From Candidatus Eremiobacteria bacterium (GTDB taxonomy: Bacteria > Vulcanimicrobiota > Vulcanimicrobiia > Vulcanimicrobiales > Vulcanimicrobiaceae), in assembly GCA_963737065.1 (NCBI GenBank), contig CAVTRC010000001.1, positions 2,433,064-2,497,063 of the forward strand: DNA of 64,000 bases, read 5' to 3'. Under the pieces are notes generated by a model that was not told the origin of the DNA, ran no database searches, and saw nothing but the letters and a program-made list of their open reading frames with translations. The stretch's first letter is position 1, and each line of letters begins with the position of its first letter. The position numbers were made by a program, and so were the translations under genes. Of this stretch, positions 13,324 to 51,237 are shown in pieces.

Positions 13324-13398
<75 letters not shown>

Positions 13399-35348: not shown

Positions 35349-35530
35349 TCCTCGCCGACTTTCGCGAGCAGCGCGTCGATTACGCACGTCCAGCGACCAT
35401 CGTCGTGCGAGCGCGAACGTCGTAATGTGGTCACCGTGCCTTTGCGATAGTTCTCGAGCGCGACGACGTGTTGACGGCGTGTGCCAAGCGCCGCAAAATC
35501 CGCGGCGCGAAGCCATTGCTTCGAAACCAT
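35345..35530 (-). CDS. Hypothetical 61-aa protein (possible gene remnant)
   Basis: AGGAG SD 6 nt before ATG; SD pairs with upstream leader codons. Confidence 0.5.
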   Translation of the reverse strand: MVSKQWLRAADFAALGTRRQHVVALENYRKGTVTTLRRSRSHDDGRWTCVIDALLAKVGEE

Positions 35531-35537
35531 ATGGGAC

Positions 35538-35584
35538 TCCTACGCGTAAGAGGTGTTGGTTTGTTTCGCCTAAGAAGCGTAGGA
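35538..35584 (-). promoter_or_regulatory. Anti-SD/SD hairpin coupling the RAPP leader to the downstream gene
   Basis: mRNA UCCUACGC (35584-35577) is complementary to GCGUAGGA (35545-35538). Confidence 0.65.
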
Positions 35585-36211
35585 AGGCGGCGCGCGTCCG
35601 CCCGCGGTGCAGAGCTCGGGTGCGACTTGTTTGCGCGGAACGATCCGCAAACGCGGTACGATGGCCGTCGCGATGTCGTCGCGTGTAAGCAGCGCGCGAA
35701 TGGTTTTCACGACGCGCAACGTCGCCCATGCTAGTTCGTGCATCACCGCAGCTGCGGCGAAGAACGTAACGATACACGTCACCAGGTGAACTCCGAGCGC
35801 GACCGCCACCGGCGCGCCCAGCCAGATCATTCCGCCGAGTGCGTGTCCTGCGACGATGGTTTGTTCGCACGTCTCCATTGCATAGAGGATGAAGAGTTGC
35901 GCGGCGAACGTCGCGGGCAACAACAGCGATGATCGTGAACGCAGCGCGCTGTCCCAACGACGCAAACGGTCTTTCATCATGTCGCCGTCGCCGTCGAAAT
36001 GCGCGCGAATCCGTAAGGCGACGTGGATTGCAACCGCGATGAGACCCACGCTGAGCGCAGGCAGTACGTCGAGATTGCTGTGATCGGTGTAGTGACCGCG
36101 CCCGAACACGCCGGCATTCGAGGCGGCTTCAAGCAACGGGTCTGCGACGGCGGCCGCGATCACGGCGACAGCGAGCGAAAACCACAACCGAACGGAGCAA
36201 ACGAAGGACAC
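35570..36211 (-). CDS. Multi-pass membrane protein ending in RAPP (putative ribosome-arrest leader)
   Basis: About 4 hydrophobic segments, GVFGRGHYTDH, C-terminal GGRAPPSYAS. Confidence 0.75.
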   Translation of the reverse strand: MSFVCSVRLWFSLAVAVIAAAVADPLLEAASNAGVFGRGHYTDHSNLDVLPALSVGLIAVAIHVALRIRAHFDGDGDMMKDRLRRWDSALRSRSSLLLPATFAAQLFILYAMETCEQTIVAGHALGGMIWLGAPVAVALGVHLVTCIVTFFAAAAVMHELAWATLRVVKTIRALLTRDDIATAIVPRLRIVPRKQVAPELCTAGGRAPPSYAS

Positions 36212-36297
36212 GGCCTTGTCCCCTTAAGCGATGCGGGAGCGAGGTCCTTGAACGTCGCGCAGCGGTCCGTAACAAAGGCGTAGAAGAAGAGCGACCG

Positions 36298-38181
36298 ATG
36301 CGCACGTTTTTCTTTACGGCCGCGACGGTATTGCTTGCGTTCATCACGGTGTGCGTGCCCGCACGCGCACAAGAGCCGTCACCGTCGCCAAGCCCTTCAC
36401 CCGGTTTTTCGACGTCGATGAGCGGCTCGAACGAATTCATCGATCAAGCCGCGAGCGGGCCCGGAATCACACCACCCGAAGCGCAGCCGTTTGCGGCAGG
36501 GCTGCCGCTTTCGCCGATGTCGCCGTACGATTGGTTTTCAAGCGCGCCGCTCACGCCGGGAATCGCGGGCGTCGGACAATACGAACTGACCGCGACCGAT
36601 CGCACGCGAAGGTTTACGGCGCAAGCGACGGTCGGATTGACGCTGATCGGCGGGGATGCAACCGCCGCGGCGTATTGGGGCGAACCGTTATTCGGTGACG
36701 CGAGCCCGCATTGGAATCATCTCTTCAATCCGCACATCGTCTTTCCGCAGAAGCCGGGAACCAACGACCTGATCGCCGGCGCGCTCGCGCTGCCGCTCGC
36801 AGCATCGGTTGCGCAAAACAACGGCGCGTGGCAAATTCGCGGCGGCTACTTGGATCTCGCGCAAACCGATCGCTTCGTATTCTCTCCGCCGGCCGTAACG
36901 AACGCGCTGCCGTCCACCGGCATACAGACCGCAGAGACGCTTGGACCGGGAATGCCGAGTCTCGAGACGTGGAACGCGCCACCGGTCTCGATGCAACTGC
37001 TCGGCGGGGATGCGCTCGTCAAGGTTCACTCGGCCGCGATCGAATTGACCGACGCGCTGCTGCCCTCGCTGCAGCAGACGGGTGTGCGGCTGCTCAACGG
37101 ATCGATCGTGATCGATCGCGGCGACTACGGGCGCTTCTCGGCGCAAATCTTGCACATCGACACGACCGGTGCGCCGATCGTTACGACGACATATTTCGGC
37201 GTCGATCGAACGTTGTACCCCGGGCCGCAAGGCCGTCTGTTTACCACCGTGCTCGCTAATCAACGACAAACACTTGCCGGCGTGAGCGCATTGGTTCATC
37301 CGGTCAAGGGGTACGACGCGCTCGTCGAATTCGGACGTGGATGGTACGATGCGCAGCCGGTCGCACAGCCGGGAACGAACGCGCCCGGCGAGTACATTCA
37401 TCTCGCGTTGACGCGTCGCTGGAACGCGACCGACGACGTCGGAATCGACTACTACCGCTTCGATCCGCGGTATGCGTCGATCGTCTTACCGTACGGGATT
37501 CCGGAGAACGTTTGGTCCGTGGCCTGGTCGTGGCCGGGACAGTGGCTGAAGTCAAATTATCAATCGGTCGACGATACGATCGTCGGGATCAACCGCGCCG
37601 GATTTCGCGCGCACGCCGATGTCCGGCGCGGAAAACTCGAACTGCACGCCGGCGCGTACGTTTGGCGGCAACTCGCGCCGTTCGACGCTCTAAACGCGGT
37701 CCAGGAAGGCTGGGCCGACGGATATTTTCTCCCGCAGACGGACGGTAACGGTACGCTCGGATGGCAGCGTCAAATCGCCATGTACGCCGCGTGGCATTTT
37801 CATCGCGACGACATCGTCGCGGACGGCGTGTGGGATCGTTCGTATCGGCCGATTCTGGGCGACGCGGCGGATTTGGTGAGCATGAATTATCCCGAAATCG
37901 TTCTGTCGATCCAGCATCATTGGAGTAAGAGGGCGATCGGCGTCATCGGGTACGGGCGATACTCGGCGAACGGGATGTGGGCGACGACGCCGGTACTCGG
38001 TATCTACGGCGCCGCATTCGTCGGCGCACAATTGGATTTCGGACGCCAGCAATTGCTCGTCCAGCTGCGACGTCAGGCTCTTACCGGTCTCCCGTCACAA
38101 CCCGGCGGTCCACCGCCCACGATGCGCGCGACCAGTGTGCTCGTCGACCAGCATTTCTCGACCGGCCCGCAGCCAAGGTGA
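36298..38181 (+). CDS. Hypothetical secreted/outer-membrane protein
   Basis: Signal peptide (ARA), PSPSPSPSP linker, Trp/Tyr/Gly-rich putative beta-strands. Confidence 0.7.
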   Translation: MRTFFFTAATVLLAFITVCVPARAQEPSPSPSPSPGFSTSMSGSNEFIDQAASGPGITPPEAQPFAAGLPLSPMSPYDWFSSAPLTPGIAGVGQYELTATDRTRRFTAQATVGLTLIGGDATAAAYWGEPLFGDASPHWNHLFNPHIVFPQKPGTNDLIAGALALPLAASVAQNNGAWQIRGGYLDLAQTDRFVFSPPAVTNALPSTGIQTAETLGPGMPSLETWNAPPVSMQLLGGDALVKVHSAAIELTDALLPSLQQTGVRLLNGSIVIDRGDYGRFSAQILHIDTTGAPIVTTTYFGVDRTLYPGPQGRLFTTVLANQRQTLAGVSALVHPVKGYDALVEFGRGWYDAQPVAQPGTNAPGEYIHLALTRRWNATDDVGIDYYRFDPRYASIVLPYGIPENVWSVAWSWPGQWLKSNYQSVDDTIVGINRAGFRAHADVRRGKLELHAGAYVWRQLAPFDALNAVQEGWADGYFLPQTDGNGTLGWQRQIAMYAAWHFHRDDIVADGVWDRSYRPILGDAADLVSMNYPEIVLSIQHHWSKRAIGVIGYGRYSANGMWATTPVLGIYGAAFVGAQLDFGRQQLLVQLRRQALTGLPSQPGGPPPTMRATSVLVDQHFSTGPQPR

Positions 38182-38191
38182 ACGCGGAAAA

Positions 38192-38207
38192 CTGATAAAA
38201 TTATCAG
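38192..38207. promoter_or_regulatory. Perfect inverted repeat CTGATAA-AA-TTATCAG, candidate operator of etfBA
   Basis: 7-2-7 AT-rich palindrome about 70 bp upstream of etfB. Confidence 0.55.
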
Positions 38208-38277
38208 AGGACAACCAGCCCGCCCGTCATAACTTGGGCGGGTTCTCCCCAAGTACTCGAGGAGGTCATTACTCCAC

Positions 38278-39066
38278 GTGAAGATCGTGGTCACGGTCAA
38301 ACTTGTGCCCGACCCGAACGCTGAAAAGCGTATCGACGCGGGCACAAAGCGTTTGGTTCGCACGGGTGTTGAAACCGTGTTGAATCCGTATGACGAGTAC
38401 GCGCTCGAAGCGGCGCTGCAACTCAAAGAAAAAGTGGGTGCCGACACGTCGGTCACGGTCTTTTCGATGGCTCCCGAGTCGCTCAAAGAGACGCTGCGCA
38501 AAGCGCTCGCGATGGGTGCCGATGATGCCGTGCTGCTCAGCGATGCGGCGCTCGAAGGCAGCGACGTATGGGCCACGTCGTATGCCATCGCGCATGCGCT
38601 CAAGAAGATCGGGTTCGATTTGCTGATCGTCGGTGGACTCTCCGACGACGGTTCGACCGGAGCAACGCCCGGCGCGATCGCGGAGTATCTGCAGACGCCG
38701 CTGGTCACGAACGTTCGCAAAGCGGAGATCGCGGAGGGCAAATTACGTCTCGAGCGTGAGACCGACACCGGCTATCAAGACGTGATCGCGCCGTTGCCGT
38801 CGGTCATCACAACCGCGCTGACGTTCGGCGAACCGCGCTACGCGTCGCTCAAAGGCATCATGGGCGCAAAGAAAAAGACGATTGCGTCGCTGACCGTCGC
38901 CGATCTCGAGCTCGATCACGCCGTCGGCGCTGGTGGTGCGAAGACGGAGCTTCTCGATGCACAGCCGCCGGCAGTGCGCGGTAAAGGACAGGTGCTCGAA
39001 GCGGCTGACGGCGCCGCGGGTGCGCAAGCTATTTTCGACCTACTCAAAGAGCGGAAACTCGTTTGA
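38278..39066 (+). CDS. etfB: Electron transfer flavoprotein beta subunit
   Basis: VKLVPD, NPYDEYALEAAL, ALAMGAD, EPRYASLKGIMGAKKK. Confidence 0.95.
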   Translation: MKIVVTVKLVPDPNAEKRIDAGTKRLVRTGVETVLNPYDEYALEAALQLKEKVGADTSVTVFSMAPESLKETLRKALAMGADDAVLLSDAALEGSDVWATSYAIAHALKKIGFDLLIVGGLSDDGSTGATPGAIAEYLQTPLVTNVRKAEIAEGKLRLERETDTGYQDVIAPLPSVITTALTFGEPRYASLKGIMGAKKKTIASLTVADLELDHAVGAGGAKTELLDAQPPAVRGKGQVLEAADGAAGAQAIFDLLKERKLV

Positions 39067-40043
39067 TGCAACACGTGCTCGTTTACGTTCAGCATAAAGG
39101 CGGACAGTCGCCCAAGGTGACGTTCGAAATGGCGACGCAAGCGCGTGAGCTGGCTGATTCGCTTGGCGGTAAAGCGCACGCGATTGTCGTCGGCACCGGA
39201 GCGACGCAACTTGCCGAGCAGTTGAAGGTGTATCCGCTCGACGTCATTTACGTCAACGACGATCCCGACGTGGATAGGTTCTTGCTGGATCCCGTCGTCG
39301 ATTACATCGACGCCGCGGCGCGCGCCATCGGTCCCTCACTCGTATTGATTCCCAATACGCTCACCGGAAAAGACGTTGCAGGCCGCGTCATGGCGCGTTT
39401 GAACGCCGGTATGTGCGCCGATGCGACGGATTTCAAGATCGAAGGCGGACGTGTCGAAGCGATCATGCCGAAGATGGGCGGCGCGGCGATAACGACGTGC
39501 GCGCTCGAATCAGGCGACTACGGCGTGGTAACGGTCCGTCCCAACGCGTTTGCAGCGCAGACGACCGGCACGAGTGCAACCGTGCAACCGATCGAGAAAC
39601 CGCCCGGCAAGAGCTACGCGGTGACGGTCGAGAACGACGTCGAAGAAGGCACCGGTGAGCTTGCATTAGAGGAAGCGCCCGTGGTGGTCGCCGGCGGCCG
39701 GGGCCTCGGCGGCCCCGAACCGTTTGAAAGCCTGTTGAAGCCGCTCGCGAAAGCGCTCGGCGGCGCGGTAGGCGCGTCGCGCGCGGCAGCGGATGCGGGA
39801 TGGGTGCCGTACAGCTTGCAGATCGGTCAGACCGGAAAAACGGTGAGTCCGAACCTCTACATCGCCGTCGGGATCTCGGGTGCGATACAACATAAGGTCG
39901 GCATGCGTTCTTCAGGTACGATCGTTGCGATCAATAAGGATGGCCAATCGCCGATCGCGGAATTTTCGGACCTCACGGTCGTGGGCGATGCCTTCGCGAT
40001 CGTGCCCGAGCTCACGAAACTCGTCGCGGCCTCCAAATCTTAA
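39066..40043 (+). CDS. etfA: Electron transfer flavoprotein alpha subunit
   Basis: VAGGRGLG, GASRAAADAGW, QIGQTGKTV, GISGAIQH. Confidence 0.95.
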   Translation: MQHVLVYVQHKGGQSPKVTFEMATQARELADSLGGKAHAIVVGTGATQLAEQLKVYPLDVIYVNDDPDVDRFLLDPVVDYIDAAARAIGPSLVLIPNTLTGKDVAGRVMARLNAGMCADATDFKIEGGRVEAIMPKMGGAAITTCALESGDYGVVTVRPNAFAAQTTGTSATVQPIEKPPGKSYAVTVENDVEEGTGELALEEAPVVVAGGRGLGGPEPFESLLKPLAKALGGAVGASRAAADAGWVPYSLQIGQTGKTVSPNLYIAVGISGAIQHKVGMRSSGTIVAINKDGQSPIAEFSDLTVVGDAFAIVPELTKLVAASKS

Positions 40044-40067
40044 AATTCATCAGGAAGTTAGTGTAAC

Positions 40068-41579
40068 TTGAAACGTTTCGCAGTTCTGCTACTGATCGCC
40101 GTCGCGTTTATCGCCGCGGCTATCGGCACGACGCCGAAAGCCCAAGCGGGCCTCTTCGGCGCCGGCAAATCGGCGGCATCGCCGAGCCCGTCACCATCGC
40201 CGTCCGCAATTCCGACGGCGACGCCCGAGCCGCCCGACGTCGCGATTCCGCGCCTTGAAGCGAAGCTGAAGACGAATCCCAACGATCAGCAGACGATGAC
40301 GGAGCTTGCGGGACAACTTCTCGGCATCAATCGTCCGGATCTGTCGATTCAACTCACGCAGCGGCTGCTGCAGATGGGCGACAAGACCGCGCAAGTCTAT
40401 TATCTCGACGGCTACGCGCAACAAGATCTCGGCCGTATGGAGCCTGCAACCGCCGATCTCGAACAAGCGGAGAATCTGGATCCGAGCAATCCCGGAGTGC
40501 TCCAACAATTGACGGTGCTCTATTTGCGCGCGAACCGGTTCACGGATGCGGAGCGAATCGCGAATCGCGCGATCGTGCTCAATAAGGGGGACGCGCAGTC
40601 GGTCACGACGCTCGGGTCGGTCTACGCCGCTGAGGGGAAGTACGACGACGCGCGCGCGCAGTTTGAAAAAGCGTCGGCGATGGATCCGAAGAACACCGCG
40701 CCGCTCTTCCAAATCGCGTCGACGTACGCATCGCAAGACAACATTCCGCTCGCGCTCGATTGGGTGGCGAAAGTGCTCGCAATCGACCCGAAGAACATTC
40801 AAGCGCTCGTATTCAAAGCGGATCTTTATGCCCGTCAGCACGATGACGCGAAGGCATCCGCCGCCTACGACGATGCGATCGTTGCCGCGGCGAGTGACGA
40901 CGAGCGCGGTGCCATCATCGTTCGCAAGGCAACCTATTTCGCCGGCCAGCACAAAGACTCGCAGGCGCAAGCCGTCTATCAGCAAGGCATCGCGCAGTAT
41001 CCAAAGGTCGCCGACCTGCACACGAGCTTCGGCCAGTACTGGGCGTCGCAAAAGAACTATGGCAACGCGCAGCGCGAATGGCAGGCAGCACTCGCGATCA
41101 ACAAAAATGACGGCCAAGCGCTCTTGTATCTCGGGCAGCTCTCGATGCAACAAGGTAAGATGTCGGATGCCGTAGCGTATTTGAAGCATCTCTCCGACAT
41201 CGATCCCGATCCTCGGACGTTTGCGATGCTCGGTCAGGCGTACTCGTTCTTGCACGACTACAGCAAATCGAAAGATGCATGCGCGAAGAGCTTCTCCATG
41301 CAAAAGGATCCATCGACGCTCGGGTGCATCGCCGGCGCGGACTTCGAATTGAAGAACTACAAGGAAGCATCGCAGATCTTCGACGTGCTCGATAAGAACG
41401 CCAAGGGTTTTCTCGATCAAAATCCGCAGCTGCTCTGGGTTGCGGGTAAAAGCTACACGCAGAACCACGAGAGACAGAAGGCGCTCGCCGCATACAAGCG
41501 CTTATTGCCGCTGATGAAAAAAGGCACCAAAGACTACAAAGAAATCGAATCGCAAATCGCAATGCTCAGCAAGAAGTAA
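40068..41579 (+). CDS. Secreted tetratricopeptide repeat protein
   Basis: Signal peptide, SPSPSPSP linker, multiple TPR-like repeats (LG..Y...G....A...F.KA...DP). Confidence 0.85.
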   Translation: MKRFAVLLLIAVAFIAAAIGTTPKAQAGLFGAGKSAASPSPSPSPSAIPTATPEPPDVAIPRLEAKLKTNPNDQQTMTELAGQLLGINRPDLSIQLTQRLLQMGDKTAQVYYLDGYAQQDLGRMEPATADLEQAENLDPSNPGVLQQLTVLYLRANRFTDAERIANRAIVLNKGDAQSVTTLGSVYAAEGKYDDARAQFEKASAMDPKNTAPLFQIASTYASQDNIPLALDWVAKVLAIDPKNIQALVFKADLYARQHDDAKASAAYDDAIVAAASDDERGAIIVRKATYFAGQHKDSQAQAVYQQGIAQYPKVADLHTSFGQYWASQKNYGNAQREWQAALAINKNDGQALLYLGQLSMQQGKMSDAVAYLKHLSDIDPDPRTFAMLGQAYSFLHDYSKSKDACAKSFSMQKDPSTLGCIAGADFELKNYKEASQIFDVLDKNAKGFLDQNPQLLWVAGKSYTQNHERQKALAAYKRLLPLMKKGTKDYKEIESQIAMLSKK

Positions 41580-42597
41580 CGCACAAACGCTAGTCGTAAC
41601 CGACGCGCTCTGCGGCGACCACCTCCGCAATGTCGGGCATCCCGAATCGCCCGGCCGCGTTGAGGTGGTCGCTGCGCGTTTAGCGGCACGGGGATTGCTC
41701 GACGAACGCGTCGCGGCGCGTGATGCGAGCGATGACGAACTGCTGCGAGTCCATTCGCCGCAGTATTTGGAACTCGTGAAACGCGAAACCGGTGCCCTTG
41801 CGGAAGCGCGGTATCTCTCCACCGGTGACGTCGTCGTCGACCAGCATTCGCTTGCAGCGGCTCGGCGAGCCGCGGGCGGTGCGATTGTCGCTATTGAAAC
41901 GGCCGCGCAGATGAAGCGCCCGGTATTCGCGCTCGTGCGCCCTCCCGGTCATCACGCGGAGCAGCGTCGCGGCATGGGCTTCTGCCTGTTCAATAATGCA
42001 GCGATCGCGGCCCGTGCGTTTCGAGCAGCGCACGGCGGTAATGTGCTCATCGTCGACTTCGACTATCACCACGGAAACGGAACGCAAGACGCGTCCGGCG
42101 CAGGCGTCTCCTACATTTCGACGCACGCATCACCCGCGTATCCCGGAACGGGATACGAAATCGAATCGCTCGATGGCGACGCACTCGTCAACGTTCCACT
42201 TCCCGCGGCGGGCATCGCGACCGAAGCATTCATCGCGGTGTGGGAAGAGTTGTTGCGCCGGACGGCGGCCGCGATACGTCCGCATGCGATCGTCGTGAGC
42301 GCCGGCTTCGATTATGTCGCCGGAGATCCGGTCGGTGATTTGGGCGTCGACGTCGACGCGGCGAAAATGTTAGCGCGCGCCATCAACCGTACTGCGGCGC
42401 AATTTTGCAACGGCGCCGTCGCGTACGTTTTGGAAGGCGGCTACGACATCGATGCACTGACGGAGTCGATCGCGCAAGTACTTACGAGCGAACGCGACGT
42501 CGGGCCGAACAGCGCCGACGGCGGCGCGATTCCGGCGCGCGTGCGCGAACGGCTCGTGCGCCTCGCGGATATCGCGAGCGCGTTCCGCCAACAGTGA
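41578..42597 (+). CDS. Histone deacetylase family protein (start codon not evident)
   Basis: HPESPGR, RPPGHHA, GFCLFNN, DFDYHHGNGTQ, SAGFD, LEGGY; frame open from 41518 without ATG/GTG/TTG until 41665. Confidence 0.85.
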   Translation, partial: NAQTLVVTDALCGDHLRNVGHPESPGRVEVVAARLAARGLLDERVAARDASDDELLRVHSPQYLELVKRETGALAEARYLSTGDVVVDQHSLAAARRAAGGAIVAIETAAQMKRPVFALVRPPGHHAEQRRGMGFCLFNNAAIAARAFRAAHGGNVLIVDFDYHHGNGTQDASGAGVSYISTHASPAYPGTGYEIESLDGDALVNVPLPAAGIATEAFIAVWEELLRRTAAAIRPHAIVVSAGFDYVAGDPVGDLGVDVDAAKMLARAINRTAAQFCNGAVAYVLEGGYDIDALTESIAQVLTSERDVGPNSADGGAIPARVRERLVRLADIASAFRQQ

Positions 42598-42598
42598 C

Positions 42599-43624
42599 CT
42601 ACGGCACGACGGATGCTGCGATTTTTTCCAGTTCCGGTAAGCTGAGTTCTCCGACGAGCGTGAAATGCAGACCGGATTCCGACCACGCGAGCAGCGTCGT
42701 CGATCCGTCCTCGGTGTACTTGGCGTCGCGGTCCTCCACTTTCGTGTTCGTCGCGCGAAAGTTCTCGAAGCCGATATCAGCGGCGCCCTGGTTCTGAAAG
42801 AGGGAGACGGTCCGCACGCCGTCCGAGTAGAGTAAGTGCAGCGTGCGCACGCCTTTGATATCGATGACGTCGCCTTCGACCGGCGTGAACCCCTCCGGCA
42901 GATACTTAGGTCCGTGAGCCGAGAATCCAGCCGCAGCAATCACGTGTTCAAGGTCGCTCGACGGCAGCCCGCGCGACGGTCCATCGACATGCTGCATCCC
43001 CTTGGGCACCTCGAACATGCCCGACGGAATTTGCTGCACGTAGCGAATGTTTTCGAAGCGCTCTTGCGTCGAGAGCGCGCCGTTGGCCGCGTAGATCTCC
43101 TTTTCCAGCACGAGATTCGTTTGTGCGTCGGTCTTAATCCGCATCGTGATCTGGCCCGTGTATTTGTTGGTCAGCAACACAACGTGCACGCGCCGTCCCT
43201 CGACGGTGTCATCGGGTGCGAACGTGGCGTTGTAATTCGAATTGAGCACCGCGAAATTGTCGTCTTCGGCGACTTGATCGTCGATCGCGTCATCTTGAGC
43301 GACCACCACTTTGTTGCGCTTCACGTCAATCGAGTACGTGGTCTCACCGCGCGAGATAACCGAATCGCCGTAGTAGCTCTGCGGCGCGAGATACCACCGG
43401 CGCGTTAAATCCGGCGCACGGTGTTCGATGCGGTACACGGCGGCGGCCGTCTTCTGCGTTCCGAAGCGCAGGACTTGGACCTCGCCGACATACGAGAGGG
43501 TTTTCGGCGCTTCGATCGCCGCGCGTAACAGCACGGTTGCCGAGGCGCTCGGCGCATGAACCGGTGCGGCGGCGATCAACGCCGCGGCAAGAGGAACGAG
43601 TGCGCCGCTAGCGCATTTCTGCAA
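42599..43624 (-). CDS. MucB/RseB-like periplasmic sigma-E regulatory protein
   Basis: Signal peptide; LHLLYSDGVRTVSLF, TLVGEL...LEKIAAS; follows sigma/anti-sigma; start uncertain. Confidence 0.75.
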   Translation of the reverse strand: MQKCASGALVPLAAALIAAAPVHAPSASATVLLRAAIEAPKTLSYVGEVQVLRFGTQKTAAAVYRIEHRAPDLTRRWYLAPQSYYGDSVISRGETTYSIDVKRNKVVVAQDDAIDDQVAEDDNFAVLNSNYNATFAPDDTVEGRRVHVVLLTNKYTGQITMRIKTDAQTNLVLEKEIYAANGALSTQERFENIRYVQQIPSGMFEVPKGMQHVDGPSRGLPSSDLEHVIAAAGFSAHGPKYLPEGFTPVEGDVIDIKGVRTLHLLYSDGVRTVSLFQNQGAADIGFENFRATNTKVEDRDAKYTEDGSTTLLAWSESGLHFTLVGELSLPELEKIAASVVP

Positions 43625-44135
43625 CGGCGCTCGCTCCCGTCGATGCGATCCAGTGCTGATCGCCCGGCGATTCGTCGTTTCGCAGCGATGCGGGTTCGAC
43701 CGCACTCTCACCGAACGGCATCGTGCTGTTGAGCGAGGCGTGGTCGCGCAGATAATACGCGGCGTCGATCGTAATCATCGGTGCGGCGTGATGGGTCGCG
43801 GTGTACCCGAAGAACGCGCCGGCAAGTACGACCGCCGCAATCGGAACGGCGATCGCGGGCCGGAAGAAGGCCGCGATGCGCTGTGCGAGCGGCGGCTGCG
43901 CCCGCCGTGCATCGACGGCATCCCAAATCCGCGTCACCATGCCGGGTGGCAGATCGCGTTCGGTTGCGCGCGCGTAGGCGCGCAACGATTCGGAGAGGCG
44001 CGCCTGCTCTTCGTACATTGCGGTGCACCGCGCGCACGATTTCAGATGCGCCAGCAGCGCTGCGTCCGCTTCAGGGCTCAGTTCGTGATGCAGGTAGTCA
44101 ATAAGCTGTTCTGTTGTTGTATGTTCGTTTGTCAT
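43608..44135 (-). CDS. Zinc-finger (HxxxCxxC) anti-sigma factor
   Basis: AHLKSCARC, single TM helix. Confidence 0.85.
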   Translation of the reverse strand: MTNEHTTTEQLIDYLHHELSPEADAALLAHLKSCARCTAMYEEQARLSESLRAYARATERDLPPGMVTRIWDAVDARRAQPPLAQRIAAFFRPAIAVPIAAVVLAGAFFGYTATHHAAPMITIDAAYYLRDHASLNSTMPFGESAVEPASLRNDESPGDQHWIASTGASAVAEMR

Positions 44136-44698
44136 GATGTTGCCGAGTAGTGCTCAACGAGTTTTCGTAGCTGTTGCCGGGCGCGATGTAGGCGCGAGCG
44201 GACCGTGCCGATCGAGCATCCGACGATCTCCGCGATTTCCTGGTAACTATATTCCTCGACGTCCGCGAGAACGACCACTTGGCGCTGATCGGGTGAAAGC
44301 GCTGCGAGCGCTCTCGACATCGTCTCGCTGAACTGCGACTCGACGAGGTCTTCGATCGGCTCCACTGCCAGGGGCCGGGCTCCCGCGTACTCTTGAGGCA
44401 CGTTGTCTTCGGGGATCTCTTCCTGATAACGGCCTTTTCGTCTCCGAAGTTCGTCCCGGTACAGATTTGTGACAATCCTGTATATCCACGAAACGAATGA
44501 GGTGCCCGGCTGAAAGCTGCGCCAGGCGCGGTACACGCGAATGAAGGCCTCTTGCGTCAGATCGCGGGCGTCGGCCTCATTGTGGGTGAGTCGGAGGGCG
44601 AAGTTGTACGTCGCCTTGCCGTGCTGTTCGATCGCCTTTTGAAGAAAGGCCGCCTGTTCGGGAGAGGGCGGATCGAACGGCTTGCGCGGTGCTGCCAT
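44132..44698 (-). CDS. ECF RNA polymerase sigma factor
   Basis: DARDLTQEAF, WIYRIVTN, SYQEIAEIVGCSIGTVRSRLHRAR. Confidence 0.92.
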   Translation of the reverse strand: MAAPRKPFDPPSPEQAAFLQKAIEQHGKATYNFALRLTHNEADARDLTQEAFIRVYRAWRSFQPGTSFVSWIYRIVTNLYRDELRRRKGRYQEEIPEDNVPQEYAGARPLAVEPIEDLVESQFSETMSRALAALSPDQRQVVVLADVEEYSYQEIAEIVGCSIGTVRSRLHRARQQLRKLVEHYSATS

Positions 44699-44754
44699 GG
44701 ACTGGCCCAGGATTTTCCCCGATTCTCAGGTCCGCCTGCTGCGCCGTCCGCCGA

Positions 44755-45300
44755 TTATTGCAGCGCGCTACGGATATCCGATGCAAGCGTCGTCACGCTG
44801 TCGTCTTGGTCGGCGATCATGCGCCGGCCGCCGTTCGCATCGATGAAGGTGACGACCGAGATATGCGCTTCGTCGTAATCGTAGTCGCCGTGTTTGCCGG
44901 GAATTTTCTGCGCCCAAATGTGATACGCGCGCTCGACGTCCGCAATCTGTGCCGGCGTGCCGGTCAACCCGACGATCGGTGCTCCCGGGAAGCGCTTCAC
45001 GAATGCGTTCAGAACCGGCGGCGTGTCGCGCTGCGGATCGACCGTGACGAACGCGATTTCGGCGTTGCCGCTCGTGCCGATCGCTTTTGCAAGCTTCGCA
45101 ACGGTCGTGGGACACGTGTCGGGGCAGTGCGTAAATCCGAAATACAGCGCGACGGCTTTGCCGCGCTGCGCCGATAGCGTCCACGGTGCGCCGTGTTGAT
45201 CGGTCAGCGTAAAATCAGGCGCCTTCGGATATTGTTGCGAACAGCCCGCACCGGCCAGCAGTGCGAGCGCCACGGCCGCCACTGCGAACACCACGCGCAT
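44755..45300 (-). CDS. SCO family copper-binding lipoprotein
   Basis: Lipobox AGC, YFGFTHCPDTCP, VTVDPQRDTP, conserved His (YDEAH). Confidence 0.9.
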   Translation of the reverse strand: MRVVFAVAAVALALLAGAGCSQQYPKAPDFTLTDQHGAPWTLSAQRGKAVALYFGFTHCPDTCPTTVAKLAKAIGTSGNAEIAFVTVDPQRDTPPVLNAFVKRFPGAPIVGLTGTPAQIADVERAYHIWAQKIPGKHGDYDYDEAHISVVTFIDANGGRRMIADQDDSVTTLASDIRSALQ

Positions 45301-45400
45301 AGATGTAGTGTACCGCACGGCCGAGCAACGTGACTCCACGGCTAAATACCGGGCATCGTACCAGGAGTTGGGTCGCGTGAGGCGCATCGCTCATGCGGAC

Positions 45401-45838
45401 ATGCCGCTCGCCGTTTTCTTGCTTCGCCTGATCCTCGGCGGTCTTTTATTGCTCACCGGTGCGTTGAAGGTCGGTCATGCACCGGAATTGGCCTCGGCGA
45501 TCGCCGGCTTTCGACTACTTCCGGCCGATGTCGTCGCGCCGCTGGCGCTGATGCTGCCGTTCTTCGAGTTGTTGCTCGGGCTGTATCTCGTCATTGGCCT
45601 CTTCACGCGCGTTGTCGGCTGGATCAGCGTCGTGCAATTCATCGTGTATGCGGCAGCCATCGCGTCGGCGGTGATACGCGGGATCCCGGCAAACTGCGGA
45701 TGCTTCGGACCGAACGATCGAACGACGGCCGATTGGCCGCACGTTGCGTTCGATCTGGTGCTCGCTCTCATCGCCTATGTCATCGCGCGGTTTGCGCCGG
45801 GCATACTCGCCGTCGATCGGAGATTTCAACGGACATGA
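45401..45838 (+). CDS. MauE/DoxX-family redox membrane protein
   Basis: TM helices, LPFFELLLG, NCGCFG. Confidence 0.85.
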   Translation: MPLAVFLLRLILGGLLLLTGALKVGHAPELASAIAGFRLLPADVVAPLALMLPFFELLLGLYLVIGLFTRVVGWISVVQFIVYAAAIASAVIRGIPANCGCFGPNDRTTADWPHVAFDLVLALIAYVIARFAPGILAVDRRFQRT

Positions 45839-46407
45839 ACCAACGGACCCTCGCCGTCGTTTCGATCGTCATTCTTGCGGTGCTCGTGATCGGCGGCGTG
45901 CTCTACGTCAAGCTGCGCCCATCACAGCAACTGCAGAACGCATCGGTCGCGCCGATCAACGCGACCGCCGAGATGGGGCAGAAAGCGCCGGAATTTCAAA
46001 CGCCGACGACGGCGGGCCCGTTCGATCTCGCCGCCACGCAGAAACCGGTGTTCCTCGAAATCTTCGCAACGTGGTGTCCGCACTGTCAGCGCGAGACCAC
46101 CGTGATCGATAAGCTCTATCAAAAGTATAAGGACCGCGTCGATTTTATCGCGGTCCCCGGAAGCGACACGGGAATGGACGGCACGAGCCCGGAGTCTCAG
46201 TACGACGTGCTCATGTTCGTGCAGCGCTTCCACACGCAGTATCCGATGGCGGCGTACGACCCGAACCTCTCCGTCGCGAAGCAATACTTGAAGGGCGGCT
46301 TTCCGACGCTCGCCATCATCGATAAAAACAAGACGATCACCTATTTGAACAGCGGCGAAGTACCGTTCAACGAACTCGACGCCGAGTTGGCGAAGGTTAC
46401 TCGTTAG
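45835..46407 (+). CDS. Membrane-anchored thioredoxin-like (TlpA) protein
   Basis: FATWCPHC, GFPT cis-Pro motif. Confidence 0.85.
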   Translation: MNQRTLAVVSIVILAVLVIGGVLYVKLRPSQQLQNASVAPINATAEMGQKAPEFQTPTTAGPFDLAATQKPVFLEIFATWCPHCQRETTVIDKLYQKYKDRVDFIAVPGSDTGMDGTSPESQYDVLMFVQRFHTQYPMAAYDPNLSVAKQYLKGGFPTLAIIDKNKTITYLNSGEVPFNELDAELAKVTR

Positions 46408-47146
46408 GCGGGAACGAGTAGTTCGGCGGCGGTACGACCGGTGTTCCCACTTCGAGCGCGATCTGCTGATGGGCTCTCAAGGGAATCATCCGCAGATCGC
46501 CGTCGTATCTCTGACCGTTCACGTATGCAGTAACCGGGCCTTTGAGTCCGGCGATGTCGTCACGAGTGAGCGGCTGTCCCCAGATGTCGAAGAGAATGCC
46601 GAGATTGTACTCCGACCCGCCCGGCGGTGCGAGCTGTGGCGCTTCGACGTGAATGATTCCCGTTGCATCGTGCGTGTGAATCCAGTAGAGGCACCCCTGC
46701 GGAGGAACCGCTGCGGCGCCGATGAGGCGCGGCACCTGCACCTGTTGTCCGCGATAGAAGATAGACAGATGTGAGTGCACGTGCAGCGTGACGTACTCTT
46801 GTCCCGCGCAGGTGATTCCATCGACCGGCTGGCCTTGTCCGCCGGATTTCGTGTCCGCGCCCGCTTTCGAGACGGCAATCATCGCCTTGCCGATCGCGGT
46901 GCCGTCTTCGAGCGGAATCGGCGTCGGACCGCCGCTTGCCGACGGCTCCGGTGAGGGCGTCGCATAGGCGGCATTCAACGCGTTGTTTTGCTGCCATCGC
47001 ATGATGCCGAAGCCCGCAACGATCAATACGACGACGACGGCGAGCGCGATGTAGATCGTCATCATCGGATCGCGCTTTTGCGGCGCGGCAGGACCGCCGG
47101 AGCGGTGTTGCTGACGGCGTTGCGAACGCGAAGAAGGTTGCGACAC
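46397..47146 (-). CDS. Hypothetical membrane-anchored protein with His cluster
   Basis: TM helix; HVHSHL, CLYWIHTHDATGIIHVE, FDIWGQPL. Confidence 0.8.
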   Translation of the reverse strand: MSQPSSRSQRRQQHRSGGPAAPQKRDPMMTIYIALAVVVVLIVAGFGIMRWQQNNALNAAYATPSPEPSASGGPTPIPLEDGTAIGKAMIAVSKAGADTKSGGQGQPVDGITCAGQEYVTLHVHSHLSIFYRGQQVQVPRLIGAAAVPPQGCLYWIHTHDATGIIHVEAPQLAPPGGSEYNLGILFDIWGQPLTRDDIAGLKGPVTAYVNGQRYDGDLRMIPLRAHQQIALEVGTPVVPPPNYSFPPNE

Positions 47147-47157
47147 GAAATACCTCG

Positions 47158-48186
47158 TTAAACGGAAATGGGCGTGAGGTCCTCACGGGCCGGATCGAGC
47201 GGATTGCCGGTGAGGAGATAGTTCAAAACGTAGTCGCTGACGGCTTCGGCGAGTGGCGTTATCGAGCGCATGTACCCGCTCTCGCGTATGCGCTCGACGG
47301 TCGCACTCGTACGATATTGATATTTCGGCCGCAGCGTTTCGGGCATGTCGATGAACTCGATGCGTTCGGGAACGCCCAAGGCTGCAAAGATCGGCCGCAC
47401 GAGTTCGAGCCACGTGTGCGGCGTGCCGCTTCCGATGTTGACGATACCGGTGAGCCGCGATTGCGCGACGTGCACGGTCATGTCGACGGCGTCCTTGACG
47501 TAGATGAAGTCACGCTGCTGTTCGCCGTCACCGAATTGCGGGCGATAGCTCTTGAAGAGACGCACGCTTCCACGATCGCGGATTTGATGAAACGCTTTGT
47601 AGACCACGCTGCGCATATCGGCTTTATGGTCTTCGTTCGGACCGAAAACGTTGAAGTATTTCAAGCCGACGATGCGATCTGCCATTCCGGTGCGTGCCGC
47701 GTAGAGATCAAAAAGCTGCTTCGAATAGGCGTACATGTTGAGCGGACGAAGCGTGCGCAGGTCGGCAGTATCGGAGAGGCCATCTTCGAGCGATCCGTAC
47801 GTTGCAGCCGATGAAGCGTACACGAAACGGGCATCGAGATCGACCGCCCAATGCGCGAGCGCTTTCGTGTACTCGTAGTTGTTGCGCATCAGAAAATCGG
47901 AGTTGGTTTCGGTCGTCGACGAACACGCGCCGAGATGAAAGGCGGTGCGCACGTTGCCGAAGTACGCCGGCCGTTCGGTCACGAGATCCAGAAAGTCGTC
48001 GGCGTCCACGTAATCGGCGAATCGCAGCGGGACGAGATGCTTCCATTTCTCCGACTCGTCCAAGCGGTCGACGACGATAATATCGTCGACGCCGCGGCGG
48101 TTGAGGAGCCAGACGAGGGCGCTGCCAATGAGGCCGGCGCCGCCGGTCACTACGACGGGACCGTCCGCAATATCATCATCATGCAT
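47158..48186 (-). CDS. rfaD: ADP-L-glycero-D-manno-heptose 6-epimerase
   Basis: VTGGAGLIGS, HLGACSSTTE, YASSAATYG, PLNMYAYSK, KYFNVFGPNEDHK. Confidence 0.92.
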   Translation of the reverse strand: MHDDDIADGPVVVTGGAGLIGSALVWLLNRRGVDDIIVVDRLDESEKWKHLVPLRFADYVDADDFLDLVTERPAYFGNVRTAFHLGACSSTTETNSDFLMRNNYEYTKALAHWAVDLDARFVYASSAATYGSLEDGLSDTADLRTLRPLNMYAYSKQLFDLYAARTGMADRIVGLKYFNVFGPNEDHKADMRSVVYKAFHQIRDRGSVRLFKSYRPQFGDGEQQRDFIYVKDAVDMTVHVAQSRLTGIVNIGSGTPHTWLELVRPIFAALGVPERIEFIDMPETLRPKYQYRTSATVERIRESGYMRSITPLAEAVSDYVLNYLLTGNPLDPAREDLTPISV

Positions 48187-48269
48187 AGGAGCGACCCCGG
48201 TATTCCCTCCTCGCGAACGCCGAGTCCTGGCAGGAGCGGCCGGGCGCACGTTTATGAATCACATTCACG

Positions 48270-50654
48270 CTAGAACGGTTGGGTGAAGCGTAACAGGAAC
48301 GTGCGACCGGTCGAAATTTGCGTCGTATTGAAGCCGTTCGCGATCTTGATGACGTACTGCGTGTTGAAGAGATTTTCGATATCCAAGTTTACTCCGATGG
48401 AGCGTTTCGTCGCGTCTTTTCCGAGCGCGAGATTAAGCGTCGTGTGCGACGGCAAACGGCCGTTGCCGTTTTCGAACTCAACCGGATACCCGGTTCCGTA
48501 ATCGGCTTCGAGCGTCGCAAACCACGTGCGGTCGCGTCCGATGCGATGGGTGTACGAGGCCGTTCCGGCGACCGTTTGATCGTGATCTTCCGGCTGCAGC
48601 AGCGCGGGCGACGTGATCGGTAAACCGCTCGTCGTAAGATCGCCGGTGCCGAAAAGGAACGTCGATCCGGACACGCCGCCCGCATACGAACCGGAAACCG
48701 TCGTCGTGAGGAACCACGAGTCGCCGTTGCTCGTCTGATTCTGAAGGCGCAACTCGACGCCCGTATCGTAACCGATCGCGTTGTTGAAGACCGCAAAGAG
48801 CGGTGTATTCAACAGTTGCGTGGTGTCGAGAACGTTCGTCGCCGACCGGCGGAAGGCGTTGATGTACCCGCGAAAGTTGCCGCCGAACGTGTGCGCGAGT
48901 CCGAGTTCGAAATACGCGTCTCGCTCCGGCTGCAACGTATAGGCGGGCTCGGTCGTGCAGCCGTTGAGAAGCACGCAATCTTCGCGAACGTCTTCCAATT
49001 GCGGAGCCGCGTACATGCGTCCATAGTATGCATGAGCGACGTTTCTGCCGCTGTCATCGGAGAGGTTGACGCCGATGCGTGGTTCCAGCATCCAGCCGCC
49101 GACGTACCCCGTCGAATGATCGAACCGGAGGCCGTAATTGAACGCGAGATTTTGATACGGCTGCCATTTGTCTTCCGCGTAGGCACCGAAGAGGGTACCG
49201 GCCTGGTTCTGCGCGGTGGAGACGGCGTAGAAGCCGGGAGCGGGCGGCGCCGGAGGCGGCGTTGACGGCGCCGGGTTGCAATCCGAGGTGTAGCAAGCAA
49301 ACGTCTGCGTCGCCGCAAAGTTCTCGCGGCTCACATCGACACCGGCCTTCCATGCATGGTGTTCGCTTGCGTGGAATTCGGAGATCCGCGCGCCGATGTA
49401 GTTCGCGCGGCGGTCTTGCTGCAATCCGATCTGATTGGCGAACTGCGGCGCGTCCGGCGTGCTCGAATCGCCGAACGCCGGATTCGGCGCAAGCGCCAGT
49501 ACGTCGTTGGTCAAGTCGCCTGCGTAGGCGATGCGCGTCGAGCGGACCCAAGGAATGAATTGGAAAACGCTGTTGCCGTCTTTCGATGTCGCCGTGTAAT
49601 TGACGTTGATGAACGAGTCGTACTCACGCTGAACGTCATCGGTGCCGGGAACGCTAAAGATCGGGTCGTTCGGGTCGTTGGAATCCGTGTTGATCGGAAT
49701 CTGGAATTGGTTGAGCTGATTGGAGAGATCGACGGCGACGGTCTGACGAGGCCCCATCTGCGCGACGTAGCGTACGAACTCGTCACCGAGCGAGTTGTTG
49801 TCGTGAATCGGCGTGTACGTCGGCGCGTCGAGCCCGCGAGCACTGCGTTGCGTATTGAGGCTCACGTAGAGCTCGCTCGCGCTGAAGCGTTCGAGTTCGT
49901 CGAGCGAGACCATCGACGTCGCGTAATTTCCCGCGCCCGCAGTCACTGACCCGTAACTGCCCGGCGGCTGATCGGACAAGCGAGTCGATACGAGATTGAC
50001 CACCGCGCCCATGCGCGTGCCGCCGTCTTCGGCGGGAAACGCACCGGTGTACACCTCCATCGAATCGAGCACCTTCGGGTCGATGATCTGCCCGAAGTTT
50101 GAACTGGTCGCGAGCGGCAGCGGTGCACCGTCGATCTCATACGTCAAGCCGTGGAAACCGTGCGCGACGGGCTCGTCGTACGAGAAGCGGACGATGCCCG
50201 GCATCGTTTCGATGAGGCGGTTGAGGTTGTCAAAGTGCGGCGAGGTGTTGATCTGCGACTTCGAGAGCGTATTCACGGAGACCGGACTACCGCCGGCACC
50301 GGCGTGTGCGGTGACCGTCGTATTCGCGATCTCCCTCAATTGATCGAGCGAGACATTGGCCGTAACGACGGCATCGCTTGTAACGGTCAGGTCGATCGTC
50401 CGGTCGGTAACGCCGGCTGCATGAACGGTCAGACGATACTGCCCGAACGGCACCTGCGAAAACCTGAAGTCGCCCGACGCGTCGGTCGCCGTCGTAAAGC
50501 GCGACCCTTCGCCGGTAAGCGTCGCGGTTGCACCAACCTGCGGTTTACCGCGCAGCGTCACCGTGCCGCGAACGAATCCGGTCGTTGCCGCCCATCCGGG
50601 CGAAGTACATATAAGGAAACACGCGGCAAGAGCGGCCGCGGACATTCGGGACAT
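48270..50654 (-). CDS. TonB-dependent receptor with N-terminal carboxypeptidase-regulatory-like domain
   Basis: Signal peptide, TTGFVRGTV N-domain, plug VYTGAFPAEDG...GAVVNLVS, ENLFN, C-terminal F. Confidence 0.85.
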   Translation of the reverse strand: MSRMSAAALAACFLICTSPGWAATTGFVRGTVTLRGKPQVGATATLTGEGSRFTTATDASGDFRFSQVPFGQYRLTVHAAGVTDRTIDLTVTSDAVVTANVSLDQLREIANTTVTAHAGAGGSPVSVNTLSKSQINTSPHFDNLNRLIETMPGIVRFSYDEPVAHGFHGLTYEIDGAPLPLATSSNFGQIIDPKVLDSMEVYTGAFPAEDGGTRMGAVVNLVSTRLSDQPPGSYGSVTAGAGNYATSMVSLDELERFSASELYVSLNTQRSARGLDAPTYTPIHDNNSLGDEFVRYVAQMGPRQTVAVDLSNQLNQFQIPINTDSNDPNDPIFSVPGTDDVQREYDSFINVNYTATSKDGNSVFQFIPWVRSTRIAYAGDLTNDVLALAPNPAFGDSSTPDAPQFANQIGLQQDRRANYIGARISEFHASEHHAWKAGVDVSRENFAATQTFACYTSDCNPAPSTPPPAPPAPGFYAVSTAQNQAGTLFGAYAEDKWQPYQNLAFNYGLRFDHSTGYVGGWMLEPRIGVNLSDDSGRNVAHAYYGRMYAAPQLEDVREDCVLLNGCTTEPAYTLQPERDAYFELGLAHTFGGNFRGYINAFRRSATNVLDTTQLLNTPLFAVFNNAIGYDTGVELRLQNQTSNGDSWFLTTTVSGSYAGGVSGSTFLFGTGDLTTSGLPITSPALLQPEDHDQTVAGTASYTHRIGRDRTWFATLEADYGTGYPVEFENGNGRLPSHTTLNLALGKDATKRSIGVNLDIENLFNTQYVIKIANGFNTTQISTGRTFLLRFTQPF

Positions 50655-50659
50655 GAAGA

Positions 50660-50714
50660 CTCCTCGGAACGTAACGTGCGTGTTGTTAAGCGGAAGTCAA
50701 CACGAGCCGAGGAG
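50660..50714 (-). promoter_or_regulatory. Anti-SD/SD hairpin coupling the RPPP leader to the TonB-dependent receptor
   Basis: mRNA CUCCUCGG (50714-50707) pairs with CCGAGGAG (50667-50660); inner stem CGUGUUG (50704-50698) / CAACACG (50685-50679). Confidence 0.7.
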
Positions 50715-51237
50715 GCGGACGCGTCACGATGCGCCGCGCGAGATGCGGCGTGACGATCGCCGGCGATGCATATCGCCGGACCACAAAGACCGTTCGAGGC
50801 GCGGTCGCGAGGCGGGAGATGGCGATCGCGCAGCACGCGAGCGCGCGTGCGGTGAGAACCGCGAGTCGCCGCAGCAAGATCGCTGCGGTCAGCATCACGA
50901 GCGAGATGATGAGGAATGAAGCCGGTCCGTGCGCGGGTTCGAGCGACTCGATGAAGGCGAACCAGACGCCGCCCGCCGCCGCTACGGCGCGAGCGCGCGG
51001 AATCCACGAACACAGCCGCGCGGCAAGGACGCTGCCTTGCGCGCAGTTTCCGCAACTGCCGAACGCCGCGACGATTGCCGCGACGAGAGCGCCGCCCGCG
51101 CCTGCGAAGGCGAAGATTGCGAGGGACTCATGATAGGCACCCGCCTCCATGTGGCCCTCGCCGAACCCGGCTGCGTGGGCAACCAGGGAGGCAAGCAGCC
51201 CTAGAATCAGGGCACCCGGCAACTGCCGGAGAGACAT
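50686..51237 (-). CDS. Multi-pass membrane protein with His motif, CxxC and C-terminal RPPP (putative ribosome-arrest leader)
   Basis: HAAGFGEGH...YHE, CGNC, about 4 hydrophobic segments, TRPPPRLVLTSA. Confidence 0.75.
   Translation of the reverse strand: MSLRQLPGALILGLLASLVAHAAGFGEGHMEAGAYHESLAIFAFAGAGGALVAAIVAAFGSCGNCAQGSVLAARLCSWIPRARAVAAAGGVWFAFIESLEPAHGPASFLIISLVMLTAAILLRRLAVLTARALACCAIAISRLATAPRTVFVVRRYASPAIVTPHLARRIVTRPPPRLVLTSA

What the first reader, a model, noticed from the sequence alone, without database searches (positions are those of the whole stretch)
35570..51237. The two leaders may be distant paralogs of one undescribed sensor-leader family
Seen: both have an N-terminal TM followed by FGxGH (GVFGRGH vs AGFGEGH) with another His close by, a later TM followed by ExxE...H (METCEQTIVAGH vs IESLEPAH), a final TM, a basic Arg-rich linker, then RAPP/RPPP 4-7 residues from the stop. 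Inference: the His/Glu residues form a metal site in the nascent membrane protein, read out as pulling force on the arrest motif. A genome-wide set of such leaders could control several uptake genes.
Basis: inference. Interest (0 to 1): 0.7.

Follow-up and report, generated by a model that had tools for sequence, protein, structure and literature searches.

The report
Four-helix ribosome-stalling leader family
The two genes are likely distant paralogs in an uncatalogued family of four-helix membrane leader proteins of Vulcanimicrobiota soil bacteria. They end in a ribosome-stalling-type motif whose codons can pair with the next gene's start signal, and likely act as metal-sensing switches, with a histidine version before copper-type genes and an aspartate version before cell-wall LCP genes.

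Summary
Both ORFs are real and conserved. Of 362 multi-TM reading frames in this genome, only these two end in R-x-P-P. They show no direct BLAST similarity. Profiles built through divergent paralogs align them in register: HHalign 95%, E 2e-8; 60-88% without the tail. Their AlphaFold models have the same helix order. The shared FGxGH is coincidental. The real matches are D24=H21 and ExxE=ExxE, all on the predicted periplasmic face. Across 95 loci the motif codons pair with their own downstream ribosome-binding region better than recoded (84/95) or swapped (82/95) controls. His-type leaders precede a TonB-dependent receptor and CopC/CopD/YcnI, multicopper oxidase, NicO and TlpA genes. One Asp-type clade precedes LCP (32/58) or other receptors. 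One relative carries eight leaders; this genome has two, and leader A's LCP is deleted to a 61-codon stub. The kind is known (CruR, CutF, Streptomyces four-TM RAPP peptides). I found no family model for it, and no LCP target in print. Arrest and metal binding are untested, and I could not measure 3D convergence. The scan earlier noted a similar RPPP four-helix leader in another genome (e1-8134502).

The parts
35570..36211 (-). Leader A: 213-aa four-TM protein, Asp-type (D24, E28, D43, H44, Q105, E113, E116, H142), ending RAPP-SYAS
35585..35596 (-). RAPP codons of leader A
35577..35585 (-). Anti-SD of leader A (last Pro base plus the next codons)
35537..35545 (-). SD region paired by leader A's anti-SD; it can also form a local hairpin
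35345..35530 (-). 61-codon in-frame relic of an LCP (LytR-CpsA-Psr) gene
   Evidence: first 15 aa 93% identical to the 373-aa LCP at the same place in G005; LCP by PF03816 and TIGR00350
34977..35348 (-). Small two-TM ORF overlapping the relic's stop (GTGA); it follows the intact LCP in G005
   Evidence: no Pfam match
50686..51237 (-). Leader B: 183-aa four-TM protein, His-type (H21, H29, H36, E97, E100, H103), ending RPPP-RLVLTSA
50710..50721 (-). RPPP codons of leader B
50707..50714 (-). Anti-SD of leader B (Pro-Pro-Arg codons)
50660..50667 (-). SD of the TonB-dependent receptor
48270..50654 (-). TonB-dependent receptor, 794 aa (carboxypeptidase-regulatory-like domain, plug, barrel); target of leader B
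   Evidence: orthologue hits PF00593

Best explanation
Both ORFs are likely members of one family of four-helix membrane leader proteins that end in an R-x-P-P motif and likely work as ligand-gated ribosome-arrest switches for the gene behind them. Steps: (1) Shown by alignment: a family of TM1-TM4 bundles whose conserved His/Asp/Glu residues (end of TM1, loop 1, ExxE at the end of TM3, loop 3/TM4) lie on the predicted periplasmic face, with RxPP at a fixed distance. (2) Shown statistically: the motif codons and the next 4 codons pair with that locus's own ribosome-binding region. (3) Inferred from CruR, ApdA/P and the Streptomyces peptides: the ribosome stalls at RxPP with all four TMs already outside the tunnel, covers the anti-SD, and the next gene is translated. 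(4) Inferred: ligand binding closes the bundle, pulls on the chain through TM4, releases the stall and lets the anti-SD mask the SD. For His-type B the ligand is most likely copper. For Asp-type A it is most likely a hard divalent cation such as Mg2+, Mn2+ or Fe2+. In this genome A's LCP target is a relic, so that switch is probably decaying or only drives the coupled two-TM gene.
For: Homology: HHalign 89%, 92% over 171 columns with four His-type A members, 95.4% E 2e-8 over 178 columns (84 vs 116 rows, no B row among the 84). Without the tail 60-83% and 72-88%. Controls: reversed score 15.4 and 25 column shuffles at most 14.9 against 30.8; seven actinobacterial four-TM RxPP leaders give under 2% without tails. 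Same helix order in both models, pLDDT 78.8 and 90.5, and the same top fold neighbours. A-type and B-type leaders precede the same receptor cluster (7 A, 13 B), the same CopC-linked gene, TlpA and the cytochrome-c-type exported protein. Topology: N-terminus, loop 2 and tail basic; loops 1 and 3 acidic/His. Spacing E100-to-R 72-79 in 116 rows, E116-to-R 90-99 in 84 rows. RNA: mean duplex -14.7 kcal/mol against -11.3 recoded and -10.8 swapped; 84 and 82 of 95 loci better; third-position Pro codon CCT in 12 of 14 B loci against 6% background; compensating 11-bp helices of different sequence in L158, L140 and L143. Copper genes behind His-type leaders: CopC-CopD, DUF1775/YcnI, multicopper oxidases, SCO1, CtaA/CtaB/CoxII. 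RPPP is partly to nearly fully permissive for arrest in ApdA/ApdP (PMC12992588 section 7).
Against: No experiment: arrest, ligand and direction are untested. Direct BLASTP E 0.46; shallow HHalign 4.5%; 65 vs 149 rows gave only 43% local, and the tail-less core aligned off register at 3.6%. The A-superfamily HMMs do not find B in this genome. Segment-permuted B profiles reached 30.5 and 31.6 in 2 of 25 trials; these keep real segments. The His-to-Asp change is a single branch on a quick tree, so its link to targets is one event. One Asp-type locus has PCu(A)C behind its receptor (L236). For leader A itself pairing is not better than recoded (p 0.235), and the SD stays paired when the anti-SD is masked (0.02). 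Whole-region folding z-scores are -0.48, -0.09 and -1.29. Only 38 of 95 loci reach p of 0.05 or less against recoding, and loci are related.
Confidence: 0.6

Rival explanations
1. The leaders are arrest peptides but monitor membrane insertion, proton-motive force or outside pH rather than a metal. The His and acidic residues set how hard the TMs are to insert, as acidic residues do for MifM (recalled).
For: Nearly all targets are exported or membrane proteins. Asp-type targets (LCP, RND, WtpA/ModA-like binding protein) share no metal. Kdp genes lie behind two Asp-type loci: KdpA a few genes on in L156 and KdpD behind a broken leader in L028.
Against: 0 of 108 leaders precede sec or yidC genes (classes). 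Invariant H21, H29 and E97 in 116 rows, and copper operons behind His-type members, fit a specific ligand better.
Confidence: 0.2
2. A and B are separate families that converged on four TMs, ExxE and an RxPP tail.
For: the cross-HMM hits are mostly TM4 plus tail; B sits on a long branch of 1.64.
Against: In-register tail-less alignment at 60-88% against under 2% for actinobacterial leaders of the same architecture; bridging His-type A members that end in RPPP and lead the same three targets as B.
Confidence: 0.12
3. The proteins are stable membrane components (metal permease, chaperone or accessory subunit), and the tail only couples translation constitutively.
For: Confident compact fold. Fold neighbours are type VII ABC (FtsX/MacB) membrane domains, Z 9.2 rmsd 5.1 over 162 residues and Z 8.8 rmsd 4.2 over 143.
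Against: Those Z values are under the roughly 13 the tool calls unspecific for helical bundles. RxPP is the most invariant part of the family at fixed spacing, and RAPP-like motifs are depleted from ordinary proteins (PMC12992588 abstract). Targets are swapped freely behind the leader.
Confidence: 0.08

Closest known systems
CruR (Bp2923, DUF2946/PF11162) of Bordetella pertussis; PMC9426467, arrest shown in PMC12992588
   Same: C-terminal RAPP leader before a TonB-dependent transporter; fixed sensor-to-motif spacing; copper context
   Different: Exported peptide with CxxC, read out by Rho termination. Here: four TMs, His/Asp/Glu residues, no CxxC, no DUF2946 match, anti-SD in the motif codons.
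CutF of Rhodobacter capsulatus; PMC9973294, bioRxiv 10.1101/2025.02.05.636593
   Same: Stalling leader sensing periplasmic metal; an RNA helix masks the downstream SD
   Different: Signal peptide plus CxxxC; stem-loop in the intergenic region; copper promotes the stall. Here the anti-SD lies in the coding tail.
Four-TM RAPP/RGPP arrest peptides of Streptomyces lividans (SLIV_18480, 27375, 33595, 33605); PMC12992588
   Same: Four TMs and C-terminal RxPP; SLIV_18480 has a predicted metal site and a metal-related target; arrest demonstrated
   Different: Predicted site is three His plus Met, not ExxE-based. Seven actinobacterial YcnI leaders align only weakly (29% with tail, under 2% without). 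I did not have the SLIV sequences themselves.
ApcA/ApdA/ApdP (and MifM, SecM; partly recalled)
   Same: RAPP-type arrest with force-coupled release
   Different: They precede sec/yidC genes; none of 108 leaders here does.

Membership tests
RAPP-type arrest leaders (class) | R-[AGPS]-P-P near the C-terminus of a small membrane or secreted protein | tested here: met
   R in 83/84 and 116/116 rows, PP 84/84; tail mostly 3-8 residues
RAPP-type arrest leaders (class) | Same-strand downstream gene close behind | tested here: met
   motif-to-start 50-231 nt, median 83, in 95 loci
RAPP-type arrest leaders (class) | Arg-dependent ribosome arrest | not testable with these tools
   needs in vitro translation or toeprinting
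DUF2946 / CruR / CutF | Match to PF11162 | tested here: not met
   no hit for either protein or among 52 and 116 members at E 0.1
DUF2946 / CruR / CutF | Conserved CxxC/CxxxC in an exported domain | tested here: not met
   no conserved Cys pair; four TMs
DUF2946 / CruR / CutF | Heads TBDT or copper operons | tested here: met
   for His-type members; mostly not for the LCP clade
DUF2946 / CruR / CutF | Copper-dependent control of the next gene | not testable with these tools
   needs reporter assays
Actinobacterial four-TM YcnI leaders (SLIV_18480 type) | Four TMs plus RxPP | tested here: met
Actinobacterial four-TM YcnI leaders (SLIV_18480 type) | Profile homology | tested here: inconclusive
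   7-row profile: 29% vs A superfamily (Q105 and H142 in register), 0.7% vs B; not shown that the 7 are SLIV_18480's family
Actinobacterial four-TM YcnI leaders (SLIV_18480 type) | His in TM3 (QxxxH) rather than ExxE | tested here: not met
   TM3 carries ExxE/D; the 7 actinobacterial rows carry QxxxH
Sec/YidC monitors (ApcA, ApdA, ApdP, MifM) | Downstream gene is sec or yidC | tested here: not met
   0 of 108; 3 without a called downstream gene
Type VII ABC (FtsX/MacB) membrane domain | Shared fold | tested here: inconclusive
   top rows for both models, Z 9.2 and 8.8; no Pfam FtsX match

The most novel reading that the evidence does not exclude
A retunable, membrane-embedded metal-sensor module built into a nascent chain. 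One four-helix scaffold with a His version for copper/nickel and an Asp version for a hard cation or oxyanion has been duplicated up to eight times per genome. It would replace transcriptional metalloregulators across a bacterial class, and in its Asp form would put an LCP cell-envelope transferase under ribosome-arrest control.
Probability: 0.3. Interest if true: 0.75.

Novelty: new variant of a known kind. Interest (0 to 1): 0.52.

Why it matters
The paper that described four-TM RAPP arrest peptides lists as open whether arrest regulates the downstream genes (PMC12992588, discussion passage). This family offers a natural ligand-swap series on one scaffold: H21 against D24, with different targets, a fixed linker and locus-specific anti-SD pairing. 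That makes 'which residues read which signal' directly testable. An arrest leader in front of LCP genes was not found in my searches, and it would link an outside ion signal to cell-envelope assembly.

Tried and rejected
FGxGH as the homologous motif: rejected. A genome-wide leader set in this genome: rejected; each profile finds only its own gene among 29,776 frames. BLASTP and shallow HHalign were uninformative. Pfam and NCBIfam: no family matched more than one member. Rfam on the window: two tRNAs only. Upstream sequences read by eye: no shared operator seen. Fold searches: no match clearly above the helical-bundle background. ESM Atlas: unnamed clusters only, some labelled Actinomycetota (0.97) or Planctomycetota (0.91); leads that I could not confirm. 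Phylum searches found members only in the window's class: A profile 84/201 and B profile 99/201 genomes, none in families f4-f21. A plasmid tblastn with a His-type member found nothing. The genome-contig scan gave 2 loci. No RNA holder was listed. The Streptomyces proteins themselves were not compared. Four supplementary files of PMC12992588 could not be read and its uORF list was cut when stored, so members of this family or LCP targets may stand in the unseen part.
Full report
1. Observation. Neither has a Pfam match. A single-protein search finds A in 29 of 61 and B in 18 of 61 genomes, counts that include this one; one B genome, G034, is unpublished and is left out of the counts below. Close relatives are titled Vulcanimicrobiota or Vulcanimicrobiaceae. 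Among 362 reading frames of at least 100 aa with three or more TM-like segments, exactly these two end in R[AGPS]PP and none ends in A[AGPS]PP. Among 124 frames with such an end, only these two show an 8-nt anti-SD/SD match.

2. Are they homologous? Directly, no signal: BLASTP E 0.46 and HHalign 4.5% for 28 vs 16 rows. With 65 vs 149 rows the match was 43% local and 76% global, and the tail-less core aligned off register. Weak hits of the A search then gave bridging members with His in place of D24, some ending in RPPP. Four of them align to 116 B rows at 92% over 171 columns. A 44-row A profile hit 84 of 201 phylum genomes, and I fetched 40 of its weaker hits. The resulting 84-row profile, with no B row, aligns to B at 95.4%, E 2e-8, 178 columns; the 40 divergent rows align to core A at 99.9%. 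Cutting the tail leaves 60-83% or 72-88%, in register. Reversed and column-shuffled controls score at most 15.4 against 30.8. Segment-permuted profiles reached 30.5 and 31.6 in 2 of 25 trials; they retain real segments. Seven actinobacterial four-TM RxPP leaders upstream of YcnI genes, found in 7 of the 10 plasmid loci scanned, give under 2% without tails, so architecture alone does not produce the A-B score. HMM cross-searches stay weak (best about 21-24 bits). The AlphaFold models (pLDDT 78.8 and 90.5) have the same order TM1, TM2, amphipathic helix, TM3, long TM4, and both rank FtsX/MacB-type membrane domains first, at non-specific Z. I put homology at about 0.85. The equivalences are D24=H21, E113=E97, E116=E100, R206=R173. 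FGxGH is a coincidence, since H40 is not conserved.

3. Anatomy. Basic residues lie in the N-terminus, loop 2 and the tail; acidic and His residues in loops 1 and 3. The conserved polar residues therefore face the periplasm and the RxPP tail is cytoplasmic (inference from the positive-inside rule). B has H21, H29 and E97 in 116/116 rows, E100 in 115, H103 in 101, H36 in 85. The A superfamily has D/H/N24 in 83/84, E/D28 in 69, E113 in 83, E/D116 in 83, H46 in 56, H142 in 48. ExxE-to-Arg spacing is 72-79 in B and 90-99 in A; the TM4 column-to-Arg spacing is 62-68 and 64-73. About 45-50 residues separate the hydrophobic end of TM4 from the motif, more than a tunnel length (recalled as 30-40 residues), so the bundle could be complete at the stall. 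I could not measure whether the residues converge.

4. RNA. I scored 95 of 108 loci; 8 had no called downstream start and 5 had an uncertain one. The 24 nt from the Arg codon pair with the region before the next start at -14.7 kcal/mol on average, against -11.3 after synonymous recoding and -10.8 with the start regions of other target classes. 84 and 82 of 95 are better than those means, but only 38 and 27 reach p of 0.05 or less. Different loci use different helices, for example 11 bp in L158, L140 and L143. Predicted SD accessibility rises from 0.10 to 0.30 when a stalled ribosome is mimicked (85 of 95 rise). Leader B is strong (-20.3; 0 of 200 recodings as good). Leader A is not (-15.3, p 0.235), and its SD stays in a local hairpin. 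Whole-region folding is no better than shuffles. The loci are related, so these counts overstate independence.

5. Targets. For 108 leaders (classes from blast clusters with Pfam/NCBIfam labels; six labels set by hand): 58 are Asp-type (D, N or G at 24) and 50 His-type. Asp-type: LCP, LCP relic or LCP as second gene 32, receptor clusters 20, RND 1, small CxxC protein 2, other or unknown 3. His-type: the receptor orthologous to the window's 20 (13 B, 7 A), other receptor clusters 11, a lipoprotein-fused siderophore-type receptor 1, an unnamed 300-aa exported protein followed by CopC 5, TlpA 5, cytochrome-c-type exported protein 3 (followed by multicopper oxidase; in L164 also CtaA, a UbiA-family prenyltransferase and CoxII), DUF1007 plus NicO 2, other or unknown 3; LCP 0. 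A further set of B loci adds 7 before CopC-CopD-signal-peptidase fusions with DUF1775/YcnI, and one before a multicopper oxidase; these were picked as second copies, not at random. The B profile hits 99 of 201 genomes, 95 of 113 in the window's family. G202 holds eight distinct leader places, and five genomes have a B and a His-type A leader back to back. On a quick tree (SH-aLRT only; tail columns included) all Asp-type rows form one clade (93). B groups with His/RPPP leaders of family f3 that lead the same three targets (91; long branch). The ligand-target link is thus one evolutionary event. It has exceptions: PCu(A)C behind an Asp-led receptor (L236), and WtpA/ModA-like proteins behind two others.

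6. This genome. Only two members are found, and 1 of 16 TBDT-like loci has a leader. B heads the receptor at 48270-50654; an SCO1 gene lies about 3 kb further on the same strand. Behind A the LCP is reduced to 61 codons in frame, followed by an overlapping two-TM ORF that follows the intact LCP in G005. G003 has a similar stub, and G001's copy is frameshifted. Another LCP exists elsewhere without a leader.

7. Mechanism. Most likely: stall at RxPP, anti-SD covered, target translated; ligand binding completes or tightens the bundle, force through TM4 releases the ribosome, and the SD is masked. The family, topology, spacing and pairing are computed here. The stall, the ligand and the direction are inferred. 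CutF shows that the opposite direction is possible. Copper for B has about 0.6; a specific metal for A about 0.4.

8. Known systems. PMC12992588 (seen: abstract, sections 7, 13, 14, passages, searches in ten supplements) reports RAPP/RGPP leaders before TBDT, YcnI, PCu(A)C and thioredoxin genes, arrest by seven S. lividans proteins of which four have TMs, a predicted three-His/Met site in SLIV_18480, and partial tolerance of RPPP. Its text has no 'LytR', 'RPPP' or 'Eremiobact', and the readable supplements have no LCP, LytR or Vulcanimicrob (one file cut, four unreadable). PMC9426467 (CruR) and PMC9973294 (CutF): passages seen. bioRxiv 2025.02.05.636593: abstract and outline. Other papers: search listings only. 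The system works like CruR/CutF but fails the DUF2946 membership tests, and homology to the actinobacterial four-TM leaders is inconclusive.

9. Verdict. A new variant of a known kind: an uncatalogued four-TM leader family with a His/Asp split and an LCP-linked clade. Interest 0.52.

Noticed in passing
window 35345-35530 and 34977-35348 (-); L147, L149, L150: LCP shrunk by in-frame deletions to about 60 codons in this genome and G003, keeping the stop/start overlap with a conserved small two-TM gene; frameshifted in G001, possibly sequencing error.
   Followed up: yes
window 36298-38181 (+): 627-aa exported protein with a Pro/Ser-rich N-terminus, divergent from leader A, no Pfam or NCBIfam match; also present in G001. 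G002 has an Nramp-family gene in that position.
   Followed up: partly
window 46397-47146 (-): 249-aa membrane-anchored protein with conserved His motifs and no Pfam match; follows the epimerase behind the receptor in many relatives, near SCO1, MauE-type and TlpA genes.
   Followed up: partly
L197:4145-6157, L198, L199, L200, L201, L203, L212: CopC-CopD fused to a signal peptidase I domain (PF10502), led by B-type leaders, often back to back with a His-type A leader heading TlpA.
   Followed up: partly
L233:6309-7160, L244:6419-7243: WtpA/ModA-like binding protein directly behind an Asp-led receptor; hint that some Asp-type leaders may respond to an oxyanion.
   Followed up: partly
L028 (G022:C65) and G178:C65: Only the first 45 or so residues of an Asp-type leader remain; in L028 the next gene is KdpD. 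L156 has kdpA a few genes behind its LCP.
   Followed up: partly
upstream of B leaders, L167-L196: A TAGAAA-like box 6-9 nt before the start codon and no SD suggest leaderless mRNAs (read by eye).
   Followed up: no
L204 (G207:C69): Two B leaders in one run: one before a cytochrome-c-type protein and multicopper oxidase, the second before the receptor.
   Followed up: no
G000 C2:291145-293218 (-): A TonB-dependent receptor split over two frames in this genome.
   Followed up: no
window 13325-13398 (-) and 63727-63799 (+): Two tRNA genes, the only Rfam matches.
   Followed up: no
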